This document shows, piece by piece, positions 1 through 64,000 of a stretch of DNA of 64,000 bases. Position 1 is the first letter of the stretch. Every line of letters starts with the position of its first letter. The notes under the pieces are model-generated. The model was not told the DNA's origin. It saw nothing but the letters and a program-made list of their open reading frames with translations, and did no database searches. The stretch is from a virus (Duplodnaviria; Heunggongvirae; Uroviricota; Caudoviricetes). The DNA lies in IMG/VR virus record IMGVR_UViG_3300024269_000017; one strand, given 5' to 3'. A program made the position numbers and the translations under genes.

Positions 1-192
1 TTAAATTCCAACTCAACTACATCCCGCATCCCCTTATCATCTGTCATAATTAAAAAGACTTGATCAAGAATTCTCGGATTCTTATTTTTAGATACATGAA
101 ATTCAATATCAACCAAATCAGTTCCTGAAGCAAAACCTCTTGCAGGATTTAATTTGTCAAGTCTATCAAAATACATAATTGCGGCCATAGTT
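1..192 (-). CDS. hypothetical small protein (~63 aa), stop TAA at window edge
   Basis: minus-strand ATG near 190-192 preceded by GGAGGA RBS; open frame to TAA at 1-3; not in ORF track, probably because it abuts the window edge. Confidence 0.35.
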
Positions 193-263
193 GTTATCCT
201 CCTAAAATAATGGGAGAACTTTATTTGAAAGTTCTCCCACATTCTAGATTATATTAAAAATTA

Positions 264-485
264 TCAAGACTTTTTACTAGAATCTGTCCATCCAATTTCA
301 GTCCACTGATCCAACTCATCCTCTGGAATAGTGACAACTTTTTTTGTAAGTACTCCATTGGTGAGAGTTTTACCTGAATCAGCAATTAATCTCAATAAAC
401 GGACATGGTAAACGTCTTCAAGGTGAATGGGGGTGTCGAGCACCCCATTCGTACCTAAATAACGATATAAAACTGTTTTTTTCAT
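264..485 (-). CDS. hypothetical protein (73 aa)
   Basis: ORF track; AGGAGAATAGGG upstream of ATG; TGA stop. Confidence 0.5.
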   Translation of the reverse strand: MKKTVLYRYLGTNGVLDTPIHLEDVYHVRLLRLIADSGKTLTNGVLTKKVVTIPEDELDQWTEIGWTDSSKKS

Positions 486-503
486 ATCCCTATTCTCCTT
501 TTA

Positions 504-3500
504 TTAAGCTTGCATAATTTGGACAAGATTTGGATTAGCTGTAATATGAAGATCATAGTTAGTAATCCAATCATCTACATAGGAAAGAATTTCATCATAT
601 GAAGTACTGTTATTATCGTAAGTAACAACAAAACTACTTAAAGATAAATATTCTTGAGAGCTTGCACCAAACATGGCATTTGTTGACAACCAAGTTAAAG
701 CGTTTGCATTAATTGGTCTTTGAGCGGTGCCAAAATTAATAATAGACCAACCACAGTTTTGGAATGTCTTATTACCATAAGCAGCACCAAAATCTTCAAT
801 ACCATCATTGTTAGTGTCTCCAAGACTGTACTCATTATAAGGAACAGTAAGAACAACACAATCCTTATTTCGGCATGCATTTGCAAATGCACTATTGCCA
901 AAATAGCTAACATTGTTAGTATTGTCAACCACTAAATTAGTACAATTTCTGAAGCAGAAAGTTCCAATAGTAGTTAGTGAGTCAGGGAAATCAACATGAA
1001 CTAAGCTGGTTGCTTTATCAAATGCAAAATCATTAAATTTATAAATCTTACTTAAATTCTCTGCATTTTCTTGACAACCTAAGAAGAACACAGCGTACAG
1101 ATCAGTATTTTGACACATACCATTAGATACAGAGCCTGTTGCAGAAGTACCTGCAGCAATTTCTAAGATCGGCCATTCGACACCTTGTTCATCAAATACG
1201 GTAATTGGGAAACAAACTTTTCCACCAATGCCATAAGTAGGATCAAGACCAACAATAGCATAATTGCCAAGAACGGCGTCTGTTTTATAAGTAATATTTA
1301 AATACTGCTGATCAATTATATTGTCATAAACACTACTTTCCATGTAAACCGCATAGAAGTTCATGTCGCTACCTGCTAAAATACGATTTAAATCGGTGGT
1401 GTCAGTAGAAGAAGTAAGAGAAGTATGCCAACCAATAAATTTATAACAAGAAGTCAAAGCCAAAGAGGTGCTATCTCTTTGAGGAATTCTAGTAGGAGTA
1501 ATAATTGGCTTACCAGCAGGAGTTTCAATTTCTTCAAACAAAGAGCCATCATAATTATAAAAGCTCATAGTATAACCATGCACTTTATATACTGCAACAA
1601 CAGTTACGCGTCCACCATCAATAGCAGATAAGACGTGAGTATTTAATTCATTAGTTGCATAAAGTGTAACTTTATCATTATCGGTAATTACGGAATGTGC
1701 CGCTCTAAAATCAAATGTGCCATCTTCAATTGCCCAACCAACAAAGTCATAATGCAATCTAGAAGGTTCTTCTCCTTCGTAAACTACTGGGGACTCAGCA
1801 TATCCATAAGGATACTTTAACCATCCAAGTGTCTTTTGAACACCTTCTGCATTATATTCAACAAAATGAACAGAATAAGCAGGATTTACTTTGTCACCAG
1901 TAATTTCAAGATCTGGATAAAGTGCATTATAACGTTTCCACAAAGTATATTCGTCTAATGCATCTCCCTCTTCCTGATTGTTCACGTGCATACGACCAGT
2001 TAAGCCTGGAAGAATTTTAGTATTTGGTAAAAGTTCATTATAAGTTAAGAAAGAGCGGTAACGATAAGTATCAGTTTCCACAGTTGCGGTTTTATCCTCA
2101 TACATATCTAAGAAAGCTGTTACAATATCAAGATTTTTAATGACGTTTGTATCAAAAGCATCATCAAAAGTATAAATTACACCATCATTAAGTTTATTGA
2201 TCCAGCCTTCCTCATAATAACCAGTAGCTCCGTTAGGATCATGGTATACTTCGTAAGTGGTTTGATTTTTTAATTCATAATACTTTGTTGCACGATCGAA
2301 AGATGTACCAATTTCAACTAATTTATATGGAGACCATTCCACATCGGTAAAGTCACACTTTAAAATAGGTGTGGTATTTCCATCAGTAATAATGCCATTG
2401 TGTTTAGCTTCTTTTACTTTATATAAGTAATCTAACAAACGATAAGAATCAATACCCATTTTACTTCTGTCTAATACAAATGTCTCAATATTACAAGTTG
2501 TATTAGCATTAGGAGTAGTGGTATATTTATCTGTTAAATTCTTAATATATAAACCAGTTGGAGTATTATCAATGGTTGGAGCTGTTTCTACAATACCCCT
2601 TAATTCAAGAGGTTGTTTCAAAACAAAGGAGGTAATTGTTTCTGGCAAGTACAAGGTCTTTAACAAGTTACCTTCAGTAAACTCGACAGAACTTAATTGT
2701 GTACCTGTTGCCATAAAAGTATTAATTTTTTCAGCACCAGTTAATTGAAGAGAACCAGCCAACTTAGTTAAATTAGATAGGTCCATATATGTCAAAAGTC
2801 CTTTTGGACTTGTAGCAGTGATAGCCAAAGCATCAATAAATTTATCTGTGATACCATCATTGCGATAGCCATCTATCAAAGAACCAAGTGTGAAAGTACG
2901 CAAACGAATTGCTTGAGAATAGTCAATTTCATTAAGGTACTTGTCACTTAAGTTGCCAAGATCCGCGATATATTCTGGACCGCGAATATAAGCCAACTGT
3001 TGAGACAATGGAACGCCATCGTCTAAGCGGTTTTTAATAGAAGATGGTGGGTCAATAAGAACAGGATCGTCTTGACCGGCAACATAAGGCTTAGGCGTGG
3101 TAGCAGTTTCATCATATACTACAGATAGATACTGAGATAAGTATCCATGTAGATTGAATGATGCACTTGCCTGCAAACCTTCTACTAAGTTACCTTCTTC
3201 ATCTTTAGTATCATCAGAAGTACGAGCAAGGTCGTTTGCATTATAACGCAATTTAATTTGCTTCTTAATAAATTCAGGATTATAAGAACCACCTAACCAC
3301 TGAGAGTCAAGATAATTCAAACGATTGCGGAAGAATGCTTGACGATTTAAAGTTCTATCACCTTGCAAGCAGTAGAAATAACCTTCAGTTTGAGAAATAG
3401 TTCCTTCTTGATCGGTATATCCTGTAGTTGCAGGAGAGATATATTTATAATCAGCGTCAATGTTCTTCATAATTTCGCTCCACTTGTCAGAACCATTGGT

Positions 3501-6500
3501 ATTATAATGTTCATTAAGTGTATCGAGTTCAATCGCACCTTCATTGCGTAAGCCGCGATAAATTGCTAAAATTTTGTCCATCATTAATCCAGCGAAGTTG
3601 ATCCATAAAACTGAACCAGCACCAGAGAAGATGGAAGCATCTTTAAATGCATGACCTGTGTCGTCATAAATATCAGGATCTTCAGATACTAATGTTGCAT
3701 CAGTGTTGTAGTCCCAAGAAACATGTCCGGAATTGTTTACACCTAACTGAGTATCAATATCGTAGAAAATTGGGAACCAAATAAAATCACCGTTAGCATT
3801 AGACTTAGCAGTTGGACCCCATGTTGCAATCATCATATTCTTTTGACGAGAGTCATAGCACAAAAGCAATTCAGTCATAATGAAATAGATTGCACAATAA
3901 TCAAGATCAAAGTGCTCAGTAAATTCATTTCTGAACTTAGCTTTTCTATAGCGGATAGAGTCAGTATCAAATTTCTCATAAAGATCTGCGCTAAAACCTT
4001 CCCAGACCAAATTTACTTCAATAGTAAATTCATCACGAGCATAGTTTTCACTAATCTCTAATCCACAATTTGCAACTGCCTCTTGGTCACTACCTTCAGG
4101 CATTTCGTAATAGAATAATCCATCTTCATGTTTTACAAAAGTATAAGGTCCAACGTATTTCTCATAATCATGAGTCATACCATTAGCTTTATCTTCTTCA
4201 GTCAGAGTGCCATTTACAGCTACTAAGAAATCAGTAAATGTCTTAAGATTATTAACAATTACGCTATTTGCATTATCTGTTTCATTCAAAGTCTGATAAG
4301 CAGCTTGAATGGTAGGAGTAATATTTGCTTTTGTATAAGTCTGATCTGCGCCAAGAGTATAATAAGTAACACCATGCTCATATTGAGAAGATAAGGTTAA
4401 ATAATATTTGGTCGCATCTAATGCACTACCAGTGAACTTTGTGGTATCTGTGCTATGTACCCAATCCCACATTACCTTAAAATTCTTGGTATGATCTTTA
4501 ATATACTGATTTGCTACACCAATCTCATTATCTTTATAAACATCTCCGATATCCCAGTCTTCATAAGTATAACGAGGCTCGAAATGATTATAAATTTGTA
4601 GACGACCAGCATTTTCTTCAGTGTTAGGAATTAATTCGTAGAAACCATTCACATCATCGCTTTGGAATTTACCAAGACCAGACTGGTTCTGGCAGAATTC
4701 CCAACATTCGGCTAACTCGCCAAAAGTACTCTTACGAGGCGTAGTTTCTTCTCTTAGCTCTTCATCATCGCTTAATTCATCGACCTTCTGCCAAGAGGTA
4801 TGAATCTTTTCTACGGAATATGGATTATATACACGTTTTGTTGGGTCTAAATCCCATCCAAAGTCAAAGCCAAATGTATTGGTAGCACCCTTATCAAGAT
4901 TAAAATTGTACTTACCAACATACTCAATATTACCATCAATGTCTTCCCAGAATACCAAAATTGGGAATCCGAAAACAGTGGTTCTATAATCTTTGGTTTG
5001 ACCAAAATATTTCTTTAATGGATGTCTCAAGTCTGCACTCTTGTCACTGCCAGTTTGATTTGCAATAGTCTGGATCAAATTGGCAAATTGCGTATTATGT
5101 GTACTTGAACTTTCCATATAGTCAGCTTTTAAACAGAAAGTCTTCGCGGCGATACCATTACCAATATCAATTTTAGAAATCATTTTACTTTCGTCATTAT
5201 GATCTTGATACCAGTAATCTTTCTTGTTTTCGTCGCCATCCCAAGTTTCAAAGCGGAAAGGTTTGTCCCAACTTGTAATACCAGAAACTTTTTCTTGGGT
5301 CTTTAACTTATAATTACGACGTGGATAACCCTGAGAAGAAGTTCCTTGCACGTCCAATTCAACATTCTGACAATGGAAGCCTTGACTTGGTTTAGCTGGA
5401 TTCCAGAAACGAATACCAACAGCTTTCTTGTTTCCTTTTGCGTAAGGAAGTTTATTGTCAGCCGTAGCACCTACATCAGAATTTTTATAAGTTGTAATAA
5501 CCATTGTTGGGATAATATCTGCTTGACGCACTTTAGCATAATCAATTTTATTACTTTCAACAATAGAACCATTGCGATTATAACGATTATGTCTCTCATC
5601 AAGAGTTGGAGCATCACCAATCCAGTTTTGAGTAATCGCAGAATAATTTAATGCATTTGTGTAAACACGAATATTAAAAATATCAACATCACAATAATCA
5701 GAGTTAATAACAATCTTATCAACGGAAGCGCTAAAGTCATCATTAGAAGTAAATTTCATAATATTGGTCAAAACACCATTAACATATAAATAAATTAATG
5801 GAATAGTATTTGAAGTTGGAGCACCAGTTTCTGTATTATAAATCTGAGTAAATTTACCAGCTGCATCTACTACGATAGAAATTTTTACTCTTTCATCATC
5901 GGTATAACGAGCATTAACAACTTTAGTTTTAGAAAGACTGAAGAAAGCCTCTTGAGTACCAAGCATAAAACCACGATAGTTGCTAGGATTAAAATATGTT
6001 AAAAATGCTCCTTCGCCACTAGATACAGTTTTTACCTGTTCAGTTTCTGGAGTTCCATCTTCGTCGAACATTGGGTTGCCATTAGCATCAATCTTTTGTA
6101 CTGCTTTTTCAATAATTAAGCGAGAGTAATCAACAGCATTACGAACTTTAAAATCAAATTCATAAGTACGAGAAGCCGCTTTGACAGTAGACATCGCTGC
6201 TAAAGGAATTTCAACAGAAGCACCATTGCTAACTCTTAAACAAGTACCTTCAGATTCATCCTCAATCCAACCATTATTAGCCCAGTTAAAATTATTAAAT
6301 TTAATTTCTCCAAGACCAATAGTATCATCTTGAGTTTCTGCTTTGTTTGGCCATTGTTGACGTTTATTTGGGGTTTCTAGATTAGAACGTCCAAGAGCAT
6401 TCAAATATAAAACTGCACCTTTTGTAGCGTCAAGGTCCATCTTATAATTTGGAACAATGAACACTTGGAATTCTTTATAAGTTAAACCGCACTGTAAAAT

Positions 6501-7817: not shown

Positions 7818-7851
7818 AAAACGATTTTCTCCTTCCTCTCAAAAAATAAAA

Positions 7852-7880
7852 AGGGCAAAGTGCAGTGTCACTTTGCCCTG
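7852..7880 (-). terminator. rho-independent terminator after 7899-9545 gene
   Basis: GC hairpin GGGCAAAGTG...CACTTTGCCC followed on minus strand by T-run. Confidence 0.5.
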
Positions 7881-7898
7881 TGTAGTAAAATTTATAAA

Positions 7899-55915: not shown

Positions 55916-55925
55916 TAAATGAAAT

Positions 55926-55960
55926 GCAGGATGACTCCACACATCCTGCATTTCTTTTCC
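55926..55960 (+). terminator. rho-independent terminator
   Basis: GCAGGATGactccacaCATCCTGC followed by TTTCTTTTCC. Confidence 0.6.
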
Positions 55961-56400
55961 CTCTGGCCGGCTGGTGCACGGGCGCCAAGTCTGTGCACCA
56001 GCCGTATTCCCGCACGCATAGGCCATGCATAATTATTCATCGACAATGCATAAACATACAAAAACAAGCCCCATCCCAAAACAGAGCCACTCTCGTCTTC
56101 GCTTGCGCGGGCGGAATTTCACCGCCGTGGATGTATGGGGTGGAGTGATCGCGTAGGCTAGGGGGACGATTTGAACGTCTCTTCTACTTGCGTAGCGTGC
56201 TAACCGAGCTGACACTACCCGTTCGCCGCGATCTGGAAGCTCTTGATACCTGCGAGAGTTTTGCCACCGAGTAATCGCGAATCCTCAGTGCCCGTAGTGG
56301 TTGTGCTTCCCTCAACCTCTGATAGTATTATACTACAAGAGGGATCAAATGTCAATACCTTTTTGCAGAAAAAGAAAAAAAAGTTTTTTTCAAAAACCTA

Positions 56401-56429
56401 TTGACATTCCTGCCCACCTATGCTATAAT
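56401..56429 (+). promoter_or_regulatory. early promoter P4
   Basis: aaaaagtttttttcaaaaacctaTTGACAttcc-N-TATAAT. Confidence 0.6.
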
Positions 56430-56486
56430 AGTCTCAGTTGGTGAGGGAAACACCGACAAGACAAAATGACAAAGGTGGTAATCACA

Positions 56487-57056
56487 ATGAATGCACTGGA
56501 ACTGATGGATCTCTACTACGACCGCATGTGCGCTTGCACTTCCACTTCTGGACGCAACAACAACTTCAAAAAGATGCTTGCTCTGTGGGAAGAAAATGAA
56601 GTTGTTCGTGCGGTTTGGACTTTTGTCAAGGATGCCTATTTCATCGTTGATCGGTTTGTCAAGGGCGTTGTTGACAAGGTAAAGTCTTTCTTTAAGCCGA
56701 CCGCAAACGTGGTTTACTCCTGCGACAAGGTAGAGGGCAATCAGCTTGTGTATCTCCTGCGGCTGCTTAATGAAGAGGGCAATCTGGTTTGGTCAAAGGT
56801 CGGCACGACCACCCGAACCATTGAAGAACGCATGAGCGAACACCTGCGCTACTATCGCAAGTATGGTATCAAAACGATCGAAGTTACTAAAGTTTGGGAT
56901 TGCGGAGAAGTTGACGCAGAAGGTTTGGAAAGTTTCCTGCGTTCCAAGTACATCCGCAAGCATCCGAACACTTTCCAGAAAAATGATCGTTTCTATCAAG
57001 TTGAGTTTGATCTGGAACAGGCTGAAAAGTGGGTTGACTTCTATCTGAACGATTGA
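56487..57056 (+). CDS. T5orf172 / GIY-YIG-like domain protein (~190 aa)
   Basis: LVYLLRLL...WSKVGTTTRTIEERMSEH...DAEGLESFLRSKY pattern resembles T5orf172 domain; GGTGG RBS 8 nt before ATG 56487 (an upstream ATG at 56466 is also in frame). Confidence 0.5.
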   Translation: MNALELMDLYYDRMCACTSTSGRNNNFKKMLALWEENEVVRAVWTFVKDAYFIVDRFVKGVVDKVKSFFKPTANVVYSCDKVEGNQLVYLLRLLNEEGNLVWSKVGTTTRTIEERMSEHLRYYRKYGIKTIEVTKVWDCGEVDAEGLESFLRSKYIRKHPNTFQKNDRFYQVEFDLEQAEKWVDFYLND

Positions 57057-57087
57057 AAAAAAAGTTTGTCAAGGGCGTAAAAACCCC

Positions 57088-57116
57088 TTGACAAACAGCC
57101 CAAGATGCTGTATAAT
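57088..57116 (+). promoter_or_regulatory. early promoter P5
   Basis: ccccTTGACAaacagcccaagatgctgTATAAT; spacer nearly identical to P11 and P15. Confidence 0.6.
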
Positions 57117-57141
57117 AGTTAATGTAAAGGAGGTCAAGAAC

Positions 57142-57546
57142 ATGGCTAAGGAACTTCAGTATCCTACCCCTGAGTGGTTGGACGCCATGGTCGATAAGAC
57201 TGGTTGCTCACTGGAAGAAGCCGAAATGGCATGGTGGGACAAGCAGATCGACAAGGGCAACCCTACCCCATGGGACTTGCCACCCGAGCAAGAGAAGGAA
57301 GCACGCAAGGCGAACCGACCCAAGGCTCACAAGGTGGTTGACCCTGCAGGCAAGACCCGAACCCGAGAACGCAAGCCCAACGAGGACAAGCGACTATTGG
57401 TGGACTGCCTGCACGACGCATTGAAGGACTTTGACAACTGCGAGGTTGTCAACCCCGAGCGTCAAGTGGACTTTGTGCTGAACGGCGTTTCCTATTCGGT
57501 TACGCTGACCGCCCACCGACCCCCCAAGGACAAGGGGAAGGGCTGA
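57142..57546 (+). CDS. hypothetical protein (134 aa)
   Basis: AAAGGAGGTCAAGAAC-ATG; TGA stop. Confidence 0.55.
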   Translation: MAKELQYPTPEWLDAMVDKTGCSLEEAEMAWWDKQIDKGNPTPWDLPPEQEKEARKANRPKAHKVVDPAGKTRTRERKPNEDKRLLVDCLHDALKDFDNCEVVNPERQVDFVLNGVSYSVTLTAHRPPKDKGKG

Positions 57547-57597
57547 TACCCTTCCCCAAGCCCCGAAAAAAAACTTGAAAAAAGTTTCAAAAAGGGC

Positions 57598-57626
57598 TTG
57601 ACAAACCGACCGACCTGTGGTATACT
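57598..57626 (+). promoter_or_regulatory. early promoter P6
   Basis: gcTTGACAaaccgaccgacctgtggTATACT with A-tract UP element. Confidence 0.6.
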
Positions 57627-57697
57627 TAAGATGTTCCAAGGGAAGGAACAAAACAAAACGACAGCGCCAAGAGCGCGGAAAGAAAGAGGTAATCGCT

Positions 57698-58066
57698 ATG
57701 ACTACTATCAATGTGAAGAATGAGAAGCTGACCTACGTGACCGCCCTGACCTACGCCATTGAGAACGGCAACCTGCCCACCGAGATCGCGGAAAAGCTGA
57801 TTGCCCTGCGTACTCAGCAGGAGAAGCGTAACAGCGGTGAGAAGAAGCCGACCAAGGTTCAGGAAGCCAACGTTGGCATCAAGCAGGTTATCCTGACTGC
57901 CCTTGAGGGTCAGGAAGCCAAGACCGTAAGCGAGATTCAGACCCTTGCTCCCGAGCTGGGCGAGCTGAGCAATCAGAAGGTTGCAAGCCTTGTCCGTCAG
58001 CTTGTGGAAGAGGGCAAGCTGACCCGAATCGAGGAGAAGCGCAAGGCGTATTTCCGCCTTGCCTGA
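57698..58066 (+). CDS. winged-helix DNA-binding protein, paralog 1 (122 aa)
   Basis: AGAGGTAATCGCT-ATG; C-terminal SNQKVASLVRQLVEEGKLTRIEEKRKAYF shared with 61254 and 63165 genes. Confidence 0.6.
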   Translation: MTTINVKNEKLTYVTALTYAIENGNLPTEIAEKLIALRTQQEKRNSGEKKPTKVQEANVGIKQVILTALEGQEAKTVSEIQTLAPELGELSNQKVASLVRQLVEEGKLTRIEEKRKAYFRLA

Positions 58067-58113
58067 CCCTCGCGGGGTGGTGAAAAAAACTTTCACCACC
58101 CCGAAAAAACCCC

Positions 58114-58142
58114 TTGACAACCTGCCTATCCTGTGCTATAAT
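58114..58142 (+). promoter_or_regulatory. early promoter P7
   Basis: ccccTTGACAacctgcctatcctgtgcTATAAT. Confidence 0.6.
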
Positions 58143-58187
58143 AGTATCAACGAAAGGGCAAGAGCCCGAACAACGAGGAGGATCCCC

Positions 58188-58445
58188 ATGAAGAACACCA
58201 TCGCTGCCACCCTGATCGCCAACTACGGTTTCGAAGCCCAGTCCAACTGCCTGTTCACTGGCAAGGGCTCTTGGCTGGCCTCTCACGAGACCGTCAAGGT
58301 CACCTTCCACGGTGACATGGTCACCATCGACCACTACCGCTTCTTCTGGGATGGCGGTGATGTGGAGTGGGAACGCTCCACGGTGGTCACCTGCCACCTC
58401 TCCCGACTGTGGGAGAACCTCCCCGAGTGGGTGCTCAGAGCCTGA
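58188..58445 (+). CDS. hypothetical protein (85 aa)
   Basis: GAGGAGGATCCCC-ATG; TGA stop. Confidence 0.55.
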   Translation: MKNTIAATLIANYGFEAQSNCLFTGKGSWLASHETVKVTFHGDMVTIDHYRFFWDGGDVEWERSTVVTCHLSRLWENLPEWVLRA

Positions 58446-58461
58446 GCCCCACTCTTTTTTT
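58425..58461 (+). terminator. rho-independent terminator
   Basis: GAGTGGG...CCCACTC stem with TTTTTTT; followed by a second GC hairpin. Confidence 0.5.
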
Positions 58462-58563
58462 ATTCGCCGGCGCGTGGGCGGGCGCTGCGCTTGCCCACTC
58501 GCCGAATTTCCGCGAGGAGCACCAGCCAGCAAAAAATAATTTGAAAAACTTGCAAAAAAGGTA

Positions 58564-58592
58564 TTGACAAATCATCCCGAATCTGCTATAAT
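58564..58592 (+). promoter_or_regulatory. early promoter P8
   Basis: gtaTTGACAaatcatcccgaatctgcTATAAT; near-identical to P18. Confidence 0.6.
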
Positions 58593-58642
58593 TAAACCAT
58601 CGAAAGGGAACACAGAGTCCCAACAGAAAGGAAGTTACTACT

Positions 58643-58894
58643 ATGATGACTGCCAAAGAAGCTAAGACCATGACCACCAACTACCTGACCGCCGAAGCTG
58701 ACAAGCACCTGCAGAAGATTGAAGACACCATTCAGATCTATGCCAGCAAGGGCAACACCTCCATGTATTACAGCAATGGTCTCAGCGGTGCCGACCCTCG
58801 CATCCAGTCCAAGGTATACAACACTATGGTTGAAGCAGGTTACAAGGTTCGTTGGTGTGAATCCAGCCTGCACATCAGCTGGGCAGATGCCTAA
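58643..58894 (+). CDS. hypothetical protein (83 aa)
   Basis: ORF track; aaaggaagttactact-ATG leader; TAA stop. Confidence 0.6.
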   Translation: MMTAKEAKTMTTNYLTAEADKHLQKIEDTIQIYASKGNTSMYYSNGLSGADPRIQSKVYNTMVEAGYKVRWCESSLHISWADA

Positions 58895-58913
58895 AAAAAG
58901 TTGCTCAGAGGGG

Positions 58914-58942
58914 TTGACAAATCCCTCTGAGCATGGTATAAT
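58914..58942 (+). promoter_or_regulatory. early promoter P9 with inverted repeat flanking -35
   Basis: GCTCAGAGGGG-TTGACAA-ATCCCCTCTGAGC then catgg-TATAAT. Confidence 0.6.
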
Positions 58943-58979
58943 AAGTACATCAAAAGGAACAAGAAAGGAAGTAACTACA

Positions 58980-59318
58980 ATGACTAAGAAGATTTCTCTG
59001 AATGACTGGACCTACATCGGCAAGTACAATCCTGCGGCCAAGTGGCTTCGTCCCCTCTGCTCCTACTCTCTGACCGAAGCTGGTGCCTATTCTGCAGATG
59101 GCAACCCCGACTATCGCCGCGATTGCAAGATTAGCTGGCCTGTGTATCTGCTCCTGTTCCTGCCTGTGCATCTACTTCAGTTGCTGGTGTGCCTGTGGGA
59201 TGGCGGCTTGAAAGAATTTGAAATTGCAAGTCGCCACATTGGGCATGATTACATCACTGCACATGGCGACAACAGCGGACGCTATCAGATGGCAAAAGAA
59301 ATTTGGGAAAAGGCTTGA
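58980..59318 (+). CDS. protein with C-terminal transmembrane segment (112 aa)
   Basis: aaaggaagtaactaca-ATG; WPVYLLLFLPVHLLQLLVCLW hydrophobic stretch; its TGA lies inside the -35 of P10. Confidence 0.55.
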   Translation: MTKKISLNDWTYIGKYNPAAKWLRPLCSYSLTEAGAYSADGNPDYRRDCKISWPVYLLLFLPVHLLQLLVCLWDGGLKEFEIASRHIGHDYITAHGDNSGRYQMAKEIWEKA

Positions 59319-59343
59319 CAAAGCCTTTCCCCTGTGGTATAAT
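59315..59343 (+). promoter_or_regulatory. early promoter P10
   Basis: gcTTGACAaagcctttcccctgtggTATAAT. Confidence 0.55.
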
Positions 59344-59371
59344 AAATGTATCAAATGAAGGAGTGATAAAC

Positions 59372-59545
59372 ATGGGTATCATGATCGGTGCTATTGTTGC
59401 AAGTCAGACCGCTATGAGAGTGGCGGCAATGAATGCCATGAAAAAAAATCTGGAAAATCAGAAAAAAGCTGTTGACAAACAGCCCAAAGTGTGCTATACT
59501 AATAATGTCGAAAGGGACAACAGAAAGGAAGGTAAACAAAAATGA
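59372..59545 (+). CDS. 57-aa peptide whose 3' half is embedded in promoter P11
   Basis: GAAGGAGTGATAAAC-ATG strong RBS; hydrophobic N-terminus; TGA overlaps the ATG of 59542 gene. Confidence 0.4.
   Translation: MGIMIGAIVASQTAMRVAAMNAMKKNLENQKKAVDKQPKVCYTNNVERDNRKEGKQK
59472..59500 (+). promoter_or_regulatory. early promoter P11
   Basis: gTTGACAaacagcccaaagtgtgcTATACT then aataatgtcgaaagggacaac. Confidence 0.6.
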
Positions 59546-59856
59546 TGAAGATCGAAATGACCAAACACGCTATGGTAGACCGCATTGACCGCTGTGTGTA
59601 CATTGCACAGAAGATTGGCTTCGGTGACAAGATTGTGTGCGAAGGTTTCCGCAGAGACAAGGGCACTCGGCAGTGCCTGTCCGAAACTGGTGTGCTGATT
59701 GTCAAGATGCCGGAAAGCGAAACCATGGTGACTGCTTACATTCCCACTCTTGAACAGGCTGGCATGATTTACAAGTCCGCAGGCTTGCACATGCCGAACT
59801 GGATGGCACAGAAAATCAAGAAGAATCAGAAGTATGCAAAGGGCTGTCCTGTGTGA
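59542..59856 (+). CDS. hypothetical protein (104 aa)
   Basis: ORF track; AAAGGAAGGTAAACAAAA-ATG. Confidence 0.6.
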   Translation: MMKIEMTKHAMVDRIDRCVYIAQKIGFGDKIVCEGFRRDKGTRQCLSETGVLIVKMPESETMVTAYIPTLEQAGMIYKSAGLHMPNWMAQKIKKNQKYAKGCPV

Positions 59857-59891
59857 CAGCCCTTTGCAAGAAAAAAATTTTCAAAAAGGTA

Positions 59892-59920
59892 TTGACAACC
59901 TGCCGAACCTATGGTATAAT
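59892..59920 (+). promoter_or_regulatory. early promoter P12
   Basis: aaaaattttcaaaaaggtaTTGACAacctgccgaacctatggTATAAT. Confidence 0.6.
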
Positions 59921-59952
59921 AAGTACAACGAAAGACGAAAGGAAGTAACACA

Positions 59953-60426
59953 ATGAACACTCTGCTTCTCACCTTCATCCTGCTGAACATCGCCAATGTT
60001 ATCATTCAGACCGTCAAGAGCATTGCAACCATCAAATGCGGAAAAGGGGTCGCCGCGATTGTTAACGCTGTTGCCTTCGGACTCTACACTGTGGTCACTG
60101 TCTACATGATGTGCGATTTGCCTCTTGCCACCAAGGCGCTGATTGTCGCAGGCTGTAACCTTGTGGGTGTGTATGTGGTCAAGTATTTTGAAGAAAAGGC
60201 AAGAAAAGACAAACTCTGGAAAGTCGAAGTCACCATTCCTGCCGAACAAGCAGAACAGATGATTGAAGATTGCAAATACTATGGATTCACTTACAACTAT
60301 GTGAACATCGAAAAGTATTTCTTGTTTAACTTCTATTGTCCCACTCAGCAGGACAGTCTGAATGTTAAGAAACTGTTACAGAGCTATGATGCAAAATACT
60401 TTGTGACTGAAAGCAAAAATTTGTGA
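59953..60426 (+). CDS. membrane protein, 2 predicted TM helices plus soluble C-terminal domain (157 aa)
   Basis: ORF track; aaaggaagtaacaca-ATG; hydrophobic N-terminal ~80 aa. Confidence 0.6.
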   Translation: MNTLLLTFILLNIANVIIQTVKSIATIKCGKGVAAIVNAVAFGLYTVVTVYMMCDLPLATKALIVAGCNLVGVYVVKYFEEKARKDKLWKVEVTIPAEQAEQMIEDCKYYGFTYNYVNIEKYFLFNFYCPTQQDSLNVKKLLQSYDAKYFVTESKNL

Positions 60427-60434
60427 GAAAGGGG

Positions 60435-60463
60435 TTGACAACCCCTCTCACATGTGGTATAAT
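60435..60463 (+). promoter_or_regulatory. early promoter P13 with inverted repeat flanking -35
   Basis: GTGAGAAAGGGG-TTGACAA-CCCCTCTCAC then atgtgg-TATAAT. Confidence 0.6.
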
Positions 60464-60493
60464 AAGTACATCAAAAGGAAAGAGGTAATGAAC

Positions 60494-60766
60494 ATGAGAG
60501 CAACTGGTATTGTAAGAAGAGTCGATGAACTGGGTCGCATTGTTATCCCCAAGGAAATCCGCAGGAACCTGAACATCAAAGAGGGCGATCCCCTTGAGAT
60601 GTATCTGGACAAGGAATACGGGCTTGTGATGAAGCCCTACCATGAAGAGCATCTGAGCTTTGACCGCCTGCAGTCTGAGTGGGAAAGCCTGAGCACCGCA
60701 AAGCGGCAGGAACTGATCTGCGAAATGGTGAACCACCTCGATGACCCCATCCGCTGTGAAGAGTGA
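60494..60766 (+). CDS. AbrB/MazE/SpoVT-family (swapped-hairpin) transcriptional regulator (~90 aa)
   Basis: N-terminus MRATGIVRRVDELGRIVIPKEIRRNLNIKEGDPLE matches AbrB-N domain pattern; AAAGAGGTAATGAAC-ATG. Confidence 0.6.
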   Translation: MRATGIVRRVDELGRIVIPKEIRRNLNIKEGDPLEMYLDKEYGLVMKPYHEEHLSFDRLQSEWESLSTAKRQELICEMVNHLDDPIRCEE

Positions 60767-60786
60767 CCGCAAGGTCACTCTTTTTT
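60761..60786 (+). terminator. rho-independent terminator (first of tandem pair)
   Basis: GAGTGACCgcaaGGTCACTC + TTTTTT. Confidence 0.7.
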
Positions 60787-60793
60787 CGCCCGC

Positions 60794-60820
60794 GCGCCCA
60801 CGAGCGTGGGCGCCGGTTTT
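60794..60820 (+). terminator. second tandem terminator
   Basis: GCGCCCACgagcGTGGGCGC cgg TTTT. Confidence 0.6.
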
Positions 60821-60912
60821 CCCGCGTATCCTTCCATTATACCATTTTTCGAGCAATTTGTCAATAGGCAAACTGCACAAACTTTTTCCCGAAACTTTGT
60901 GCAATCTGTCAA

Positions 60913-60941
60913 TAGACATTTGGGGTCTGATACTGTATAAT
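60913..60941 (+). promoter_or_regulatory. variant promoter (TAGACA-17-TATAAT) with conserved upstream TTTGTGCAATCTGTCAA element and palindrome
   Basis: caaTAGACAtttggggtctgatactgTATAATagataatgtcaggaggg; same architecture recurs at 62818. Confidence 0.5.
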
Positions 60942-61022
60942 AGATAATGTCAGGAGGGCACTGAGGTGATGCCGAGTGAAGCTGGTCGACAAAACTTCTT
61001 CAAAAAAAGTTTTGAAAAACCC

Positions 61023-61051
61023 TTGACAAAGCCGCCAAGATGTGATATACT
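61023..61051 (+). promoter_or_regulatory. early promoter P14b (drives ~90-nt leader RNA)
   Basis: cccTTGACAaagccgccaagatgtgaTATACT. Confidence 0.55.
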
Positions 61052-61143
61052 GATAGTGTCAAGAGGGCAAGGAACTGCAAGAGGAACCCTTCGGCGCTGA
61101 AGCGCACAGGATAAAAACTCAAAAAAAAAGTTTCAAAAACCCC

Positions 61144-61172
61144 TTGACAAACACCGCAAGGTGTGGTACAAT
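61144..61172 (+). promoter_or_regulatory. early promoter P14c
   Basis: ccccTTGACAaacaccgcaaggtgtggTACAAT. Confidence 0.55.
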
Positions 61173-61253
61173 AAGGATGTCGAAAGGGCAAGGCGCCAGC
61201 CCCACTCGACAGTCACTAACACCAATCGACAAGAAAGAAAGAGGTAATGAATC

Positions 61254-61607
61254 ATGGAAAAGATGACTTATGTGAAGGCTCTGGAAGTTGCTCTGAACTG
61301 CGAAGCTCTGTCTGCCGAAGTGCGTGAGAAGCTGTCTGCTCTGCGTGACCAGCAGGTCAAGCGTAACTCTGCGGAGAAGAAGCCCACCAAGACCCAGCAG
61401 GCGAATGAGGGCGTGAAGTCCCATGTGCTGGAAGTGCTGGCTTCCTGCGCCCAGCCTGTGACTGTGTCTGAACTGATGCAGGCTGATGAAGAGCTGTCCC
61501 AGCTCTCCAATCAGAAGGTCGCTTCGCTGGTTCGCCAGCTGGTGGAAGCTGGCAAGGTTCAGCGACTGGAAGAGAAGCGCAAGGCTTACTTCACTCTGGT
61601 GAAGTGA
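61254..61607 (+). CDS. winged-helix DNA-binding protein, paralog 2 (117 aa)
   Basis: ORF track; AGAGGTAATGAATC-ATG; shares SNQKVASLVRQLVEAGK...EEKRKAYF with paralogs. Confidence 0.65.
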   Translation: MEKMTYVKALEVALNCEALSAEVREKLSALRDQQVKRNSAEKKPTKTQQANEGVKSHVLEVLASCAQPVTVSELMQADEELSQLSNQKVASLVRQLVEAGKVQRLEEKRKAYFTLVK

Positions 61608-61667
61608 CCTTGCGGGGCAGGGGTAAAACCCTGCCCCATCTTCCCGAAAAAAAGTTTCAAAAAGGTA

Positions 61668-61696
61668 TTGACAAACAGCCCAACATCTGCTATAAT
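61668..61696 (+). promoter_or_regulatory. early promoter P15
   Basis: aaaaagtttcaaaaaggtaTTGACAaacagcccaacatctgcTATAAT. Confidence 0.6.
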
Positions 61697-61740
61697 AGAT
61701 AATGTCGAAAGGCAATAGAACAAGAAAGAGGTAATGCAAA

Positions 61741-62397
61741 ATGAATCGCCACTTCTACATTCTGATGGATACTGAAACTGCCAACGGTCTGGATTGCCCC
61801 ATCAACTACAATACCGCATGGTCTGTAATTGACCAGCACGGCAACACCTACGAAAACTTCAATTTCATCAACCGCGACATTTTCTTTGACCGTCCCGAAC
61901 TCATGCAGTCCGCATACTACGCCCACAAGATTCCGCAGTATCTTGAACAGATTGAACGCGGCGAAATCAAGGTTGCAACGTGGTACGAAATCCGCAAGGC
62001 GTTCCGCGACTGTTGCGAAAAGTACAACATCAAGGCAGTTATCGCCCACAATGCCCGATTCGACTATCGCTCCTGCACGATGACCCAGCGTTACGAAACC
62101 TGCTCCAAGTATCGCTACTTCTTCCCGAAGGGCGTTGAAATTTGGGACACGCTGGCAATGGCTCGTGATGTGGTCGCCCCGATGCCCACTTACCGCAAGT
62201 GGTGCGAAACCAACGGTTTCACCTTGAAGAACGGACAGCCCCGACTGACCGCCGAAATCCTGTTCCGCTTCATCTCCAAGGACATTGACTTTGTGGAAGA
62301 ACACAAGGCAATGGAAGATGTGAACATCGAAAAGGAAATCTTTTGGTACTGCATCCGCAAGCACAAGGCAATGCGTCGAAAGGCTTTCAAGGACTGA
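61741..62397 (+). CDS. DnaQ-like DEDDh 3'-5' exonuclease (218 aa)
   Basis: YILMDTETANG (Exo I), AHNARFDYR (Exo II), EEHKAMEDV (Exo III H-x4-D) motif pattern; AGAGGTAATGCAAA-ATG. Confidence 0.6.
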   Translation: MNRHFYILMDTETANGLDCPINYNTAWSVIDQHGNTYENFNFINRDIFFDRPELMQSAYYAHKIPQYLEQIERGEIKVATWYEIRKAFRDCCEKYNIKAVIAHNARFDYRSCTMTQRYETCSKYRYFFPKGVEIWDTLAMARDVVAPMPTYRKWCETNGFTLKNGQPRLTAEILFRFISKDIDFVEEHKAMEDVNIEKEIFWYCIRKHKAMRRKAFKD

Positions 62398-62404
62398 AAA
62401 AGTC

Positions 62405-62433
62405 CTTGACAGCCGCCCCAAAGTGTGATATAA
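62405..62433 (+). promoter_or_regulatory. early promoter P16
   Basis: gtccTTGACAgccgccccaaagtgtgaTATAAT. Confidence 0.6.
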
Positions 62434-62465
62434 TAAGTACATCAAAAGGAAAGAGGTAATTGACC

Positions 62466-62702
62466 ATGACTCAGTTTCAGTATGAAGTAAATGTTTACGA
62501 AGAAGACCACGTCCTGTCCTGCAAGACCAACAATCCCCGCACCGCCTGCCAGTTTATGCTGGATCATGCCGACTGCTATCTTGATGTCATCAACGGTTTT
62601 ACTGGTGAAGTGCTCGCTGTGATGAACCATGAGAATGCTTACTGTCAAGAGGATTTCGGGCTGATGCTTCTCGGCTATATGACCGAAACAATTTGGGGCT
62701 GA
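62466..62702 (+). CDS. hypothetical protein (78 aa)
   Basis: AAAGAGGTAATTGACC-ATG; TGA stop. Confidence 0.55.
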   Translation: MTQFQYEVNVYEEDHVLSCKTNNPRTACQFMLDHADCYLDVINGFTGEVLAVMNHENAYCQEDFGLMLLGYMTETIWG

Positions 62703-62728
62703 CCCTTCGGGGTTGGCTCTTTTCTTTT
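62697..62728 (+). terminator. rho-independent terminator (first of tandem pair)
   Basis: GGCTGACCCttcgGGGTTGGCT + CTTTTCTTTT. Confidence 0.6.
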
Positions 62729-62731
62729 GAG

Positions 62732-62763
62732 CCGGTCGTGCGCGGGCCACACGACCGGTTTTT
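62732..62763 (+). terminator. second tandem terminator
   Basis: CCGGTCGTGcgcgggccaCACGACCGG + TTTTT. Confidence 0.7.
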
Positions 62764-62817
62764 CCGCAATGGGCAGATCTACCAAGAAATTCGCTGAAAA
62801 TTTGTGCATTTTGCCAA

Positions 62818-62846
62818 TAGACATTTTATCCCGAAAGTGGTATACT
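62818..62846 (+). promoter_or_regulatory. variant promoter (TAGACA-17-TATACT), second copy
   Basis: tttgtgcattttgccaaTAGACAttttatcccgaaagtggTATACTaataatgtcaggagggg. Confidence 0.5.
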
Positions 62847-62938
62847 AATAATGTCAGGAGGGGAGGCCAAGAAACCGAGAGGCGGCCGACTCTCAGGAAG
62901 TAGAGGAAGAAAACTTGAAAAAAAGTTTCCGAAACCTC

Positions 62939-62967
62939 TTGACAAACCACTGACCCTGTGGTATAAT
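62939..62967 (+). promoter_or_regulatory. early promoter P17b (drives ~95-nt structured leader RNA)
   Basis: ctcTTGACAaaccactgaccctgtggTATAAT. Confidence 0.55.
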
Positions 62968-63090
62968 AAGGGTGTCAGGTGAGGGAAGCAACTGACAGTC
63001 GCTTAGCCAAGGTAGCCTGCGGAGTGGGTGCGCAACACTCCATGGTTAGACCCTGTGCAAGCGAAGCGAAAAAAAAGTTTGCGAAACCCC

Positions 63091-63119
63091 TTGACAAACA
63101 ACTGAATAGGTGCTATAAT
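63091..63119 (+). promoter_or_regulatory. early promoter P17c
   Basis: ccccTTGACAaacaactgaataggtgcTATAAT. Confidence 0.6.
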
Positions 63120-63164
63120 AAGAGTGTCCTAAGGGACAAGACAAAAAGAAAGAGGTAATGAATC

Positions 63165-63572
63165 ATGATGAAGTTCACTAAGAAGGTTGCTCTGGAAGTC
63201 GCTATCAATGCTATCGAGAACTCCACCCTGCCCAACTGGTCTTTCACTGAGGGCGAGGAAACCCTGACCATCTCCAAAGCGGAAGCCATCGAGAAGCTCC
63301 AGAAGATGATTGAGCAGTTGGAGGCTAAGTCCAACGCTCCCAAGAAGCCCACTAAGGTGCAGGAAGCCAACGAGGGTGTCAAGGACATCATCAAGGCTGT
63401 GCTGGAAGGTCAGTCCCCCATGACTGTCTCCGAAATCATGACCCACTCTGCGGAACTGAGTGCCCTGTCCAACCAGAAGGTCGCCTCTCTGGTGCGCCAG
63501 ATGGTCGAGGCTGGCGTGCTGGTTCGCACTGAGGAAAAGCGCAAGGCTTTCTTCGCCCTCGCTCAGGGCTGA
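63165..63572 (+). CDS. winged-helix DNA-binding protein, paralog 3 (135 aa)
   Basis: ORF track; AGAGGTAATGAATC-ATG; shares SNQKVASLVRQMVEAG...EEKRKAFF. Confidence 0.65.
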   Translation: MMKFTKKVALEVAINAIENSTLPNWSFTEGEETLTISKAEAIEKLQKMIEQLEAKSNAPKKPTKVQEANEGVKDIIKAVLEGQSPMTVSEIMTHSAELSALSNQKVASLVRQMVEAGVLVRTEEKRKAFFALAQG

Positions 63573-63576
63573 GCCT

Positions 63577-63601
63577 GAGACCCCGAAAGGGGTCTCTTTT
63601 T
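63577..63601 (+). terminator. rho-independent terminator (first of tandem pair)
   Basis: GAGACCCCgaaaGGGGTCTC + TTTTT. Confidence 0.7.
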
Positions 63602-63607
63602 CTTGGG

Positions 63608-63638
63608 CTGCTCGCGGACGGGCGCCGCGAGCAGTTTT
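63608..63638 (+). terminator. second tandem terminator
   Basis: CTGCTCGCGGacgggcgCCGCGAGCAG + TTTT. Confidence 0.6.
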
Positions 63639-63693
63639 CCGCGATACACTAGACCCACCGAAAAATTTTCTTGAAAAATCGGCATTTTAGGGG

Positions 63694-63722
63694 TTGACAG
63701 ATTATCCCGAATCTGATATAAT
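63694..63722 (+). promoter_or_regulatory. early promoter P18 (near-duplicate of P8)
   Basis: ggggTTGACAgattatcccgaatctgaTATAAT. Confidence 0.6.
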
Positions 63723-63749
63723 AGAACCATCGAAAGGAGCTGATCTGAA

Positions 63750-63890
63750 ATGTTCACCTGTCCTGCACTCTGTATCCTTGGTCTGGTTCTCTCTATGTGG
63801 GGATTCATCTGGGGTATCTTCTTCCAGGAATTCCTGTGGCTGTGTGTAGCTGGTTTTGCGCTGGGCTGGATGTTTTCTAAAGATTGTTGA
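63750..63890 (+). CDS. 46-aa hydrophobic membrane peptide
   Basis: AAAGGAGCTGATCTGAA-ATG; two hydrophobic helices; TGA stop. Confidence 0.45.
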   Translation: MFTCPALCILGLVLSMWGFIWGIFFQEFLWLCVAGFALGWMFSKDC

Positions 63891-63899
63891 AATTAGGGG

Positions 63900-63928
63900 T
63901 TGACAAACTGCCCCAACTGTGTTATAAT
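63900..63928 (+). promoter_or_regulatory. early promoter P19
   Basis: ggggTTGACAaactgccccaactgtgtTATAAT. Confidence 0.6.
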
Positions 63929-63953
63929 AATAATGTCGAAAGGAGCTGATAGC

Positions 63954-64000
63954 ATGGAGTTCAAGGAAGCTATCAAGGCTTACGCTAAAATGATGGGCGT
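63954..64000 (+). CDS. 5' end of next early gene (truncated by window)
   Basis: AAAGGAGCTGATAGC-ATG; MEFKEAIKAYAKMMG... Confidence 0.45.
   Translation, partial: MEFKEAIKAYAKMMG

What the first reader, a model, noticed from the sequence alone, without database searches (positions are those of the whole stretch)
1..64000. No suppressor tRNA or release-factor gene in this 64 kb despite pervasive TAG decoding
Recoded phages usually carry tRNA-Sup(CUA) and sometimes RF modulators. I could not recognise any tRNA in the intergenic stretches I inspected. The decoding machinery must lie outside this window, for example in a tRNA cluster, or be host-provided. The second case would make the host itself, or its lysogens, amber-suppressing.
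Basis: inference. Interest (0 to 1): 0.5.

Follow-up and report, generated by a model that had tools for sequence, protein, structure and literature searches.

The report
Suppressor tRNA sits outside the window
This 64-kb stretch is part of a roughly 168-kb gut phage that reads the TAG stop codon as glutamine, and the tRNA it needs for that is simply encoded about 30 kb further along the same genome, so the missing tRNA is an ordinary effect of where the window ends.

Summary
ARAGORN and Rfam find no tRNA in the window, and no release-factor signature is present. TAG decoding is real but not pervasive. Of the 26 large ORFs on the minus (late) strand, 13 carry 107 in-frame TAGs and 13 carry none. 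The 19 to 22 plus-strand early genes have no TAG at all.

Comparison with strains and relatives shows that TAG means glutamine (code 15).

The window belongs to a roughly 168-kb phage with an SPbeta-like structural module. It is a distant relative of the published phAss-1 group. Contig ERZ27248314:k141_1461088 matches the window at 99.98% over 10.5 kb. The same contig carries an island of 33 tRNA genes that starts about 20 kb past the window's right end. One of these, about 30 kb past the end, is a 91-nt tRNA with anticodon CUA (Rfam tRNA, 53 bits). Its sequence is identical in five strains and 74% identical to a phAss-1 suppressor.

Host-provided suppression is not needed. No release-factor gene was seen in the roughly 115 kb examined.

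This is a new member of a known kind, and interest is low.

The parts
504..52312 (-). Late/structural gene block, read with TAG as a sense codon (code 15).
   Evidence: Contains 26 large ORFs. 13 of them carry 107 in-frame TAGs, and all end in TAA or TGA. Pfam YonB/YonD/YonG/YomU/YomV/YomW hits on identical contigs mark an SPbeta-like module.
24880..36255 (-). Tape-measure-like giant protein, 3791 aa, with 42 in-frame TAGs.
   Evidence: It is a single ORF only when TAG is read through. It was called as about 3818 aa on a strain contig.
18766..24780 (-). Tail protein, 2004 aa, with 18 in-frame TAGs.
39803..40564 (-). YomV-like protein, 253 aa, with 11 in-frame TAGs. This is the densest recoding in the window.
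   Evidence: The TAG sites align mostly to Q in relatives.
46312..47922 (-). Portal protein ORF with 7 in-frame TAGs.
   Evidence: phrog_2739 portal protein, E 1e-62.
48302..50056 (-). Terminase large subunit ORF with 2 in-frame TAGs near the N-terminus.
   Evidence: phrog_5909 terminase large subunit, plus two PHROGs of unknown function.
51224..52156 (-). Sigma-factor-like gene, the first gene of the late strand, with one in-frame TAG at codon 54 (51995-51997).
   Evidence: phrog_5767 sigma factor, E 8.5e-45, and the profile match spans the TAG. Recoded relatives carry 1-5 in-frame stops in this gene, with one exception (L011, 0). Most standard-code relatives carry none (L026, L030, L042-L044), but L037 and L038 show 1 and 4 stops in their alignments.
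52312..52340 (-). Sigma-70-type promoter (TTGACT-17-TGnTATAAT) in front of the sigma-like gene.
   Evidence: 11 of 12 matches, with TG extension.
43086..44132 (-). Major capsid protein (YonB family), with no TAG.
   Evidence: Pfam PF27364 YonB. It is 52% identical to the phAss-1 homologue.
504..12209 (-). TAG-free block of four distal tail or receptor-binding-type genes (2437, 548, 451 and 403 aa).
   Evidence: It has 0 TAG in 3,881 codons, against 105 in 16,970 codons for the whole strand. The 2437-aa protein has an LRR_5 domain.
52386..63890 (+). Early gene block of about 22 short genes that can be read identically under the standard code and code 15.
   Evidence: There is no TAG as a sense or stop codon. 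Stops are TGA 17 and TAA 2 in the 19 called genes. GC is 0.44-0.49, against 0.35 on the late strand.
54181..63959 (+). Array of about 20 near-consensus sigma-70 promoters, one in front of each early gene.
   Evidence: Repeat families D1-D8. 49 promoter-like sites against 12.9 +/- 4.5 in shuffles, and 17 of them match 12 of 12 positions.

Best explanation
The window is about 38% of a roughly 168-kb tailed phage of gut Bacillota. The phage has an SPbeta-type structural module and uses genetic code 15 (TAG = glutamine) for about half of its late genes.

The decoding agent is a phage-encoded tRNA with anticodon CUA. It is absent from the window only because the phage keeps all its tRNA genes in one island. 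That island holds 33 genes over about 17 kb, on the plus strand, downstream of the early and middle genes. It starts about 20.4 kb beyond the window's right end, and the CUA tRNA lies about 30.3 kb beyond the end.

Shown:
- recoding of the late strand;
- glutamine as the meaning of TAG;
- absence of any tRNA or release factor in the window;
- presence and strict conservation of the tRNA(CUA) on the same contig.

Inferred:
- Early genes have strong host-type promoters and no TAG, so the unmodified host can express them.
- Once the tRNA island is transcribed, the suppressor competes with host release factor 1 and lets the TAG-containing late genes be translated in full. These include a sigma-factor-like gene at the head of the late strand.
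For: Observation:
- There is no tRNA in the window. The detector was validated on the three phAss-1 suppressors.
- In-frame TAGs join ORF fragments into proteins of 900-3800 aa.

Meaning of TAG:
- In 96.5%-identical strains, TAGs not shared with the window align to window Q in 7 of 7 cases.
- TAGs of IMG/VR relatives align to window Q in 243 of 587 non-TAG cases, against a background Q frequency of 3.6%.
- Window TAGs align to Q in 30% of residues of standard-code relatives, against a background of 4.4%.

Linking the tRNA to this genome:
- The window is 100% or 99.98% identical to pieces of two roughly 168-kb contigs (L050, L049).
- L083 comes from the same contig as L049. It carries 31 tRNAs, including a tRNA with anticodon cta at L083 9407-9497, which is record position 134,247-134,337.
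- L086 comes from the sample that also yielded window-identical contigs. It overlaps L083 at 100% and adds two more tRNAs.

The tRNA(CUA) itself:
- It scores 53.3 bits on Rfam tRNA, against a gathering score of 29.
- It is identical in five contigs whose flanks are only 83-99% identical.
- It is 74% identical to phAss-1 sup1, including the long variable arm.

Precedent: phAss-1 also keeps its three suppressors outside the structural module.
Against: - About 53 kb of the genome was not read (record 1-30 kb and 145-168 kb). Further suppressors or a release-factor gene may exist there.
- Window-to-record mapping assumes collinearity between the tested ends.
- The amino acid charged onto the tRNA was not determined. 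Its 21-nt variable arm is unusual for a glutamine tRNA.
- No consensus early promoter lies inside the tRNA island of two close relatives, L072 and L075. L083 itself was not scanned for promoters. The timing of tRNA expression is therefore unknown.
Confidence: 0.9

Rival explanations
1. Suppression is supplied by the host: the host itself reads TAG as sense, lacks release factor 1, or carries its own suppressor tRNA. The phage tRNA(CUA) would then be redundant.
For: The window and its immediate +/-10 kb contain no tRNA. The phAss-1 paper reports recoded relatives with no detectable suppressor.
Against: A strictly conserved tRNA(CUA) is encoded on the same contig. Early genes avoid TAG completely, both as sense and as stop codon, and they use TGA stops. 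That pattern is expected when infection starts in a standard-code cell. Published surveys cited find standard-code hosts for such phages.
Confidence: 0.04
2. The tRNA(CUA) is charged with an amino acid other than glutamine, for example Ser, Leu or Tyr. Bacterial tRNAs for these three have long variable arms. The code would then not be code 15.
For: The tRNA has a 21-nt variable arm. By my own knowledge, which was not tested here, SerRS and LeuRS do not read the anticodon.
Against: TAG positions align overwhelmingly with Gln and not with Ser, Leu or Tyr. The acceptor end has a weak 1:72 pair, G2-C71, G3-C70 and G73. This resembles the phage's own tRNA-Gln genes and phAss-1 sup2. The phAss-1 authors report a Gln isotype call from tRNAscan-SE.
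Confidence: 0.06
3. The TAGs are genuine stops. The late genes would be fragmented pseudogenes, or would be produced as truncated products.
For: Under the standard code, the minus strand still gives 14.8k aa of ORFs >=100 aa.
Against: 107 TAGs lie in frame within conserved proteins, and the reading frame is maintained across them. No TAA or TGA interrupts these ORFs. The same pattern appears in dozens of relatives. Profile matches span TAG sites.
Confidence: 0.01

Closest known systems
phAss-1 / proposed Phassvirus group (OQ749652.1; Babkin et al. 2023, PMC10607447), NCBI 'Caudoviricetes code 15 clade'
   Same: - Human-gut phage with TAG read as Gln in virion genes.
- Homologous capsid protein (52% identity) and the same SPbeta-like module.
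- A large tRNA complement (28-36 genes) that includes tRNA-Sup(CUA) located outside the structural module.
- The suppressor found here is 74% identical to phAss-1 sup1.
   Different: - There is no nucleotide-level match, so this is not the same genus.
- The genome is about 168 kb, against 136 kb.
- One suppressor has been seen so far, against two or three.
- Early genes are transcribed divergently from the structural block.
Stop-codon-recoded gut phages in general (Borges et al., bioRxiv 10.1101/2021.08.26.457843; Peters et al. 2022, PMC9523058)
   Same: - Recoding is concentrated in late and structural genes, and early genes are code-neutral.
- The suppressor tRNA is phage-encoded.
- The host is presumed to use the standard code.
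   Different: - The capsid lineage is different (SPbeta-like siphophage of Bacillota, not crAss-like or Lak).
- Half of the late ORFs are TAG-free.
Bacillus phage SPbeta and SPbeta-like phages
   Same: Structural proteins match the Pfam families YonB, YonD_N, YonG_N, YomU_Tube, YomV_2nd and YomW. Genome size is 125-170 kb.
   Different: By my own knowledge, SPbeta uses the standard code. This phage is recoded and carries a 33-gene tRNA island.
Theta (HDV-like) ribozyme-associated suppressor tRNAs of gut phages (Kienbeck et al. 2024, PMC10879173)
   Same: A suppressor tRNA(CUA) in a code-15 gut phage.
   Different: No HDV-like ribozyme follows the tRNA, either by Rfam at E<=1 or by my own structural descriptor, whose positive control was found. 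The tRNA gene also encodes its own CCA end.

Membership tests
Code-15 (TAG=Gln) recoded phage with its own suppressor tRNA | In-frame TAG codons inside conserved phage genes, with the reading frame kept across them. | tested here: met
   107 TAGs in 13 late ORFs. Portal and sigma-factor profile matches span TAG sites.
Code-15 (TAG=Gln) recoded phage with its own suppressor tRNA | TAG positions correspond to glutamine in homologues. | tested here: met
   7 of 7 in near-identical strains. 243 of 587 in relatives and 30% in standard-code relatives, against backgrounds of 3.6% and 4.4% respectively.
Code-15 (TAG=Gln) recoded phage with its own suppressor tRNA | TAG is not used as a terminator. | tested here: met
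   0 of 26 late ORFs and 0 of 22 early genes end in TAG.
Code-15 (TAG=Gln) recoded phage with its own suppressor tRNA | A tRNA gene with anticodon CUA in the phage genome. | tested here: met
   It is not in the window. It is on the same 167,964-bp contig at record 134,247-134,337, scores 53.3 bits on Rfam tRNA, and is identical in 5 strains.
Code-15 (TAG=Gln) recoded phage with its own suppressor tRNA | Glutamine is actually inserted at UAG during infection. | not testable with these tools
   This needs proteomics or charging assays.
Proposed genus Phassvirus (phAss-1, BK046881, BK025033) | High genome-wide nucleotide identity. The three proposed members share 80-86%. By my own knowledge, the ICTV genus threshold is about 70%. 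| tested here: not met
   Megablast of 49 kb of the window finds nothing in the phage collection that contains phAss-1. The capsid protein is only 52% identical. The phage belongs to the same wider clade but not to the genus.
SPbeta-like structural module | Capsid, tube and associated proteins belong to the Yon/Yom families. | tested here: met
   Pfam YonB, YonD_N, YonG_N, YomU_Tube, YomV_2nd and YomW, plus YomO (weak), on window-identical contigs.
Recoded phages that carry release-factor genes | A class-I release factor (PCRF / RF-1 domains, GGQ loop) encoded by the phage. | tested here: not met
   No GGQ-loop motif in six frames of the window or the flanking loci. L083 was not in that scan; it is covered only by precomputed Pfam lists. 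No RF domain appears in the precomputed Pfam lists. About 53 kb of the genome was not examined.
Theta-ribozyme-processed suppressor tRNAs | A minimal HDV-like ribozyme within +/-5 nt of the tRNA 3' end. | tested here: not met
   The Rfam E-value scan of L083 finds none. My own descriptor scan finds none at the CUA tRNA, while the control drz-Mtgn-1 was detected.

The most novel reading that the evidence does not exclude
The suppressor is an unusual hybrid. It has a glutamine-type acceptor end with an unpaired A1.C72, and a 21-nt variable arm of the kind found in class-II tRNAs. It is conserved between this phage and phAss-1. It might be charged by an unexpected route, or with an unexpected amino acid.

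A second possibility is that its appearance acts as a translational gate on the TAG-containing sigma-factor-like gene that heads the late strand. The code switch would then directly time late transcription.
Probability: 0.12. Interest if true: 0.5.

Novelty: new member of a known kind. Interest (0 to 1): 0.15.

Why it matters
The result matters little beyond correct annotation. A missing suppressor tRNA in a partial window is not evidence for host-provided suppression. This clade keeps its tRNAs in one island far from the virion genes.

The phage adds a roughly 168-kb, widely sampled member to the little-studied SPbeta-like code-15 clade of gut Bacillota phages. Exact copies of single window proteins are indexed in about 40 blocks of the public assembly collection. 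Its genes must be called with table 15.

Tried and rejected
- Megablast of the window against 50,697 GenBank phages found nothing.
- An IMG/VR scan with a flank protein found nothing.
- The single metagenome-contig scan, run with a chimeric query, returned only two 2-kb contigs.
- A chimeric protein search that contained a low-complexity Tyr/Ser/His-rich segment returned nothing and cost one of three searches.
Ids obtained from the listing of cluster members were accepted, and this made the walk along the genome possible.
- Three look-ups of window-strain proteins returned only short contigs.
- A GTDB scan for prophages or hosts gave only three MAG contigs, labelled Lachnospiraceae (2) and Bacilli (1). 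These are probably binned phage contigs, so the host evidence is weak.
- The search for a theta or HDV-like ribozyme next to the suppressor was negative.
- The idea that the tRNA island is driven by the same consensus early promoters was not supported. No such promoter lies in the island of two close relatives, L072 and L075.
Full report
**1. The observation**

ARAGORN reports no tRNA or tmRNA gene anywhere in the 64,000 bases. Rfam reports nothing at gathering score. At E<=10 it reports only five chance-level matches, none of them to tRNA. The detector is not blind to suppressors. On the published phage phAss-1 it recovers all 36 tRNAs, including the three annotated tRNA-Sup-CTA genes, which it labels 'tRNA-Pyl (cta)'.

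No class-I release-factor GGQ-loop motif occurs in any reading frame of the window. The Pfam hits precomputed for genes on contigs identical to the window contain no release-factor domain. The negative observation is confirmed.

**2. The premise, 'pervasive TAG decoding'**

Reading TAG through on the minus strand turns fragments into single ORFs of 3791 aa (42 TAGs), 2004 aa (18), 1006 aa (4), 910 aa (7) and others. None of them is interrupted by TAA or TGA. In total, 107 in-frame TAGs lie in 13 of the 26 large minus-strand ORFs.

The other 13 ORFs have none. They include a contiguous 3,881-codon block at 504-12209 and the capsid and scaffold genes at 42431-46299. The plus-strand genes between 52.4 and 63.9 kb contain no TAG at all, as sense or as stop codon. 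TAG never terminates a gene: late ORFs end in TAA (24) or TGA (2), and early genes end in TGA (17) or TAA (2). Recoding is real, but it is confined to half of the late genes.

**3. What TAG means**

- Two contigs are 96.5% identical to the window (L002, L003). They carry seven TAGs at positions where the window does not, and all seven align to window Gln.
- In thirteen IMG/VR relatives, 243 of the 587 TAGs that align to a non-TAG window residue fall on Gln, against a background Gln frequency of 3.6%.
- Window TAGs align to Gln in 30% of cases in standard-code relatives, against a background of 4.4%.

This is genetic code 15, so the agent required is a Gln-inserting tRNA(CUA).

**4. What the window is**

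Genes on window-identical contigs hit the Pfam families YonB (capsid), YonD_N, YonG_N, YomU_Tube, YomV_2nd and YomW. This is an SPbeta-type virion module. PHROGs identify the portal, the terminase large subunit and a sigma-factor-like protein.

The closest described phage is phAss-1 (OQ749652.1, 'Caudoviricetes code 15 clade'), with a capsid protein 52% identical. There is no nucleotide-level match to any phage in the GenBank collection searched.

The plus strand from 54.2 to 64.0 kb is an early region. It has about 20 short genes, each preceded by a near-perfect sigma-70 promoter. There are 49 promoter-like sites against 12.9 +/- 4.5 in shuffles, and 17 of them match 12 of 12 positions, most with a TG extension. 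GC is 0.44-0.49, against 0.35 on the late strand. This promoter type and the AGGAGG-like ribosome-binding sites point to a Bacillota host. Three MAG contigs with related capsid genes are labelled Lachnospiraceae (2) and Bacilli (1), which is weak support.

**5. Where the suppressor is**

Exact look-ups of window proteins showed that the window is 100% identical to pieces of several assemblies:
- ERZ27248457:k141_453581;
- JGI Ga0257077_10002300;
- ERZ27248446:k141_1065152 (168,127 bp).

It is 99.98% identical, over 10,485 bp, to ERZ27248314:k141_1461088 (167,964 bp; locus L049). From L049, window position x corresponds to record position of about 39,972 + x.

The 10 kb to the left of the window (L049, L050) and the 10 kb to the right (L005) hold no tRNA. 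The next 10 kb in 88-95%-identical relatives holds none either (L068, L070).

Walking further in relatives revealed a tRNA island with one tRNA(CUA) (L072, L075, L077). A look-up of the window-strain allele of a gene flanking that tRNA then returned locus L083, which comes from the same 167,964-bp contig as L049 (record 124,841-145,155). L083 carries 31 tRNA genes, including one with anticodon cta at L083 9407-9497. This is record 134,247-134,337, about 30.3 kb past the window's right end.

L086 is a 6.5-kb contig from the same sample as two window-identical contigs. It overlaps L083 at 100% over 4,106 bp, and it adds tRNA-Met and tRNA-Thr immediately after an AAA-ATPase gene. The island therefore spans record positions of about 124,379-141,273 and holds 33 tRNAs. 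It begins about 20.4 kb past the window end.

**6. The suppressor itself**

The 91-nt sequence is AGGGGAGTGGTGTAACGGCAGCACGGCAGACTCTAAATCTGTTAGCCCTCTGAAGGCGTAAGTCAGGGTTCGAATCCCTGCTCCCCCGCCA. It is identical in five contigs whose surrounding DNA is only 83-99% identical. It scores 53.3 bits on the Rfam tRNA model, against a gathering score of 29.

- It is 74% identical to phAss-1 sup1, including a 21-nt variable arm (CCCTCTGAAGG).
- It shares its acceptor and D arms with phAss-1 sup2.
- The acceptor end (A1.C72 unpaired, G2-C71, G3-C70, G73) resembles the phage's own tRNA-Gln genes.
- The CCA end is encoded in the gene.
- No HDV-like 'theta' ribozyme of the kind reported next to many phage suppressors (PMC10879173) follows it.

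**7. Mechanism**

Shown: a code-neutral early block under host-type promoters; a recoded late strand; a phage tRNA(CUA) in a tRNA island downstream of the early and middle genes, on the same strand as them.

Inferred, following the model of Borges et al. (bioRxiv 10.1101/2021.08.26.457843): infection begins under the host's standard code. Once the suppressor accumulates, it competes with release factor 1 and allows full-length synthesis of TAG-containing late proteins.

The first gene of the late strand (51224-52156) is sigma-factor-like. It has its own sigma-70 promoter (52340-52312) and one in-frame TAG within the conserved region. Its homologues carry 1-5 in-frame recoded stops in recoded relatives, with one exception (L011, none). 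They carry none in most standard-code relatives, but L037 and L038 show 1 and 4 stops. This is compatible with translational gating of late transcription, but it is not specific evidence for it.

Codon usage fits a division of labour. Early genes use CAG 77 to CAA 6. Late genes use CAA 430, CAG 153 and TAG 105. The 33 phage tRNAs plausibly serve the AT-rich late genes.

**8. Comparison and novelty**

This is the known phenomenon of code-15 phages with a self-encoded suppressor, in a lineage whose first members were described in 2023 (PMC10607447). In phAss-1 the suppressors also lie outside the virion module, at 62.4-62.6 kb and 105.7 kb.

The phage fails the test for the Phassvirus genus because there is no nucleotide-level similarity, but it belongs to the same wider clade. 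The finding as written is a correct negative observation whose explanation is the position of the window. It is a new member of a known kind, and interest is low.

**9. Limits**

- About 53 kb of the genome (record 1-30 kb and 145-168 kb) could not be read, so additional suppressors or a release-factor gene cannot be excluded.
- The charged amino acid is inferred from alignments only.
- The host was not identified.

Noticed in passing
window 54181-63959 (+): About 20 near-perfect sigma-70 promoters, 17 of which match all 12 positions of TTGACA-17-TATAAT and most of which have a TG extension. One stands in front of each short early gene. The region has GC 0.44-0.49, against 0.35 in the late strand. 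Its stops are almost all TGA (17 of 19), and its codon bias is CAG 77 to CAA 6, the opposite of the late strand.
   Followed up: partly
window 504-12209 (-) and 42431-46299 (-): TAG-free islands inside the recoded strand. One is a block of four distal tail or receptor-binding-type genes (3,881 codons, 0 TAG, local GC up to 0.40). The other is the set of capsid, scaffold and protease genes. Strains also differ in TAG density: 8 per 1000 aa in L001, 12.5 in L002 and 16 in L003. This suggests ongoing gain and loss of TAG, or recent import from standard-code phages.
   Followed up: partly
window 51224-52156 (-), promoter at 52312-52340: A sigma-factor-like gene (phrog_5767, E 8.5e-45) heads the late strand. 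It has its own host-type promoter and one in-frame TAG at codon 54. Its homologues in recoded relatives carry 1-5 in-frame stops, with one exception (L011, none). Most standard-code relatives carry none, but L037 and L038 show 1 and 4.
   Followed up: partly
IMG/VR loci L009-L046 (capsid neighbourhoods of relatives): The clade holds three genetic codes. Most members are TAG-recoded. Several use the standard code (for example L026, L030, L037-L045). Four contigs with GC 0.29 (L032-L035) look TGA-recoded: ORF coverage is 0.56-0.66 under the standard code and 0.87-0.92 with TGA read through.
   Followed up: no
L083 5475-5800 (same genome, about 26 kb past the window's right end): The tRNA-Leu(UAA) gene is split between U34 and A35 by an insert of about 240 nt. 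The insert matches the group I intron model (RF00028, 47.4 bits, gathering score 50, E 2e-9). The relatives L072, L075 and L077 carry the uninterrupted allele. This is the classic insertion site of the cyanobacterial and plastid tRNA-Leu intron.
   Followed up: partly
L083 9407-9497 (same genome, about 30 kb past the window's right end): The suppressor tRNA(CUA) has a 21-nt variable arm and an unpaired A1.C72. Its CCA end is encoded and no theta or HDV-like ribozyme follows it. The sequence is invariant across five strains.
   Followed up: yes
L049 17770-20222 (about 7-10 kb left of the window): Two or more consecutive recoded ORFs encode highly repetitive proteins rich in Tyr, Ser, His, Asn and Thr (motifs such as HYSGHY, YYT and NSGY). 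They lie downstream of a 1445-aa tail-fibre-like protein. Their function is unknown.
   Followed up: no
window 47933-48301 (-): A small ORF of 118 aa with 1 TAG lies between the terminase and portal genes. The portal ORF has about 140 open codons upstream of its first ATG, and the portal profile match begins at profile position 135. The portal start or structure may therefore be mis-called, or the small ORF may be an insertion.
   Followed up: no
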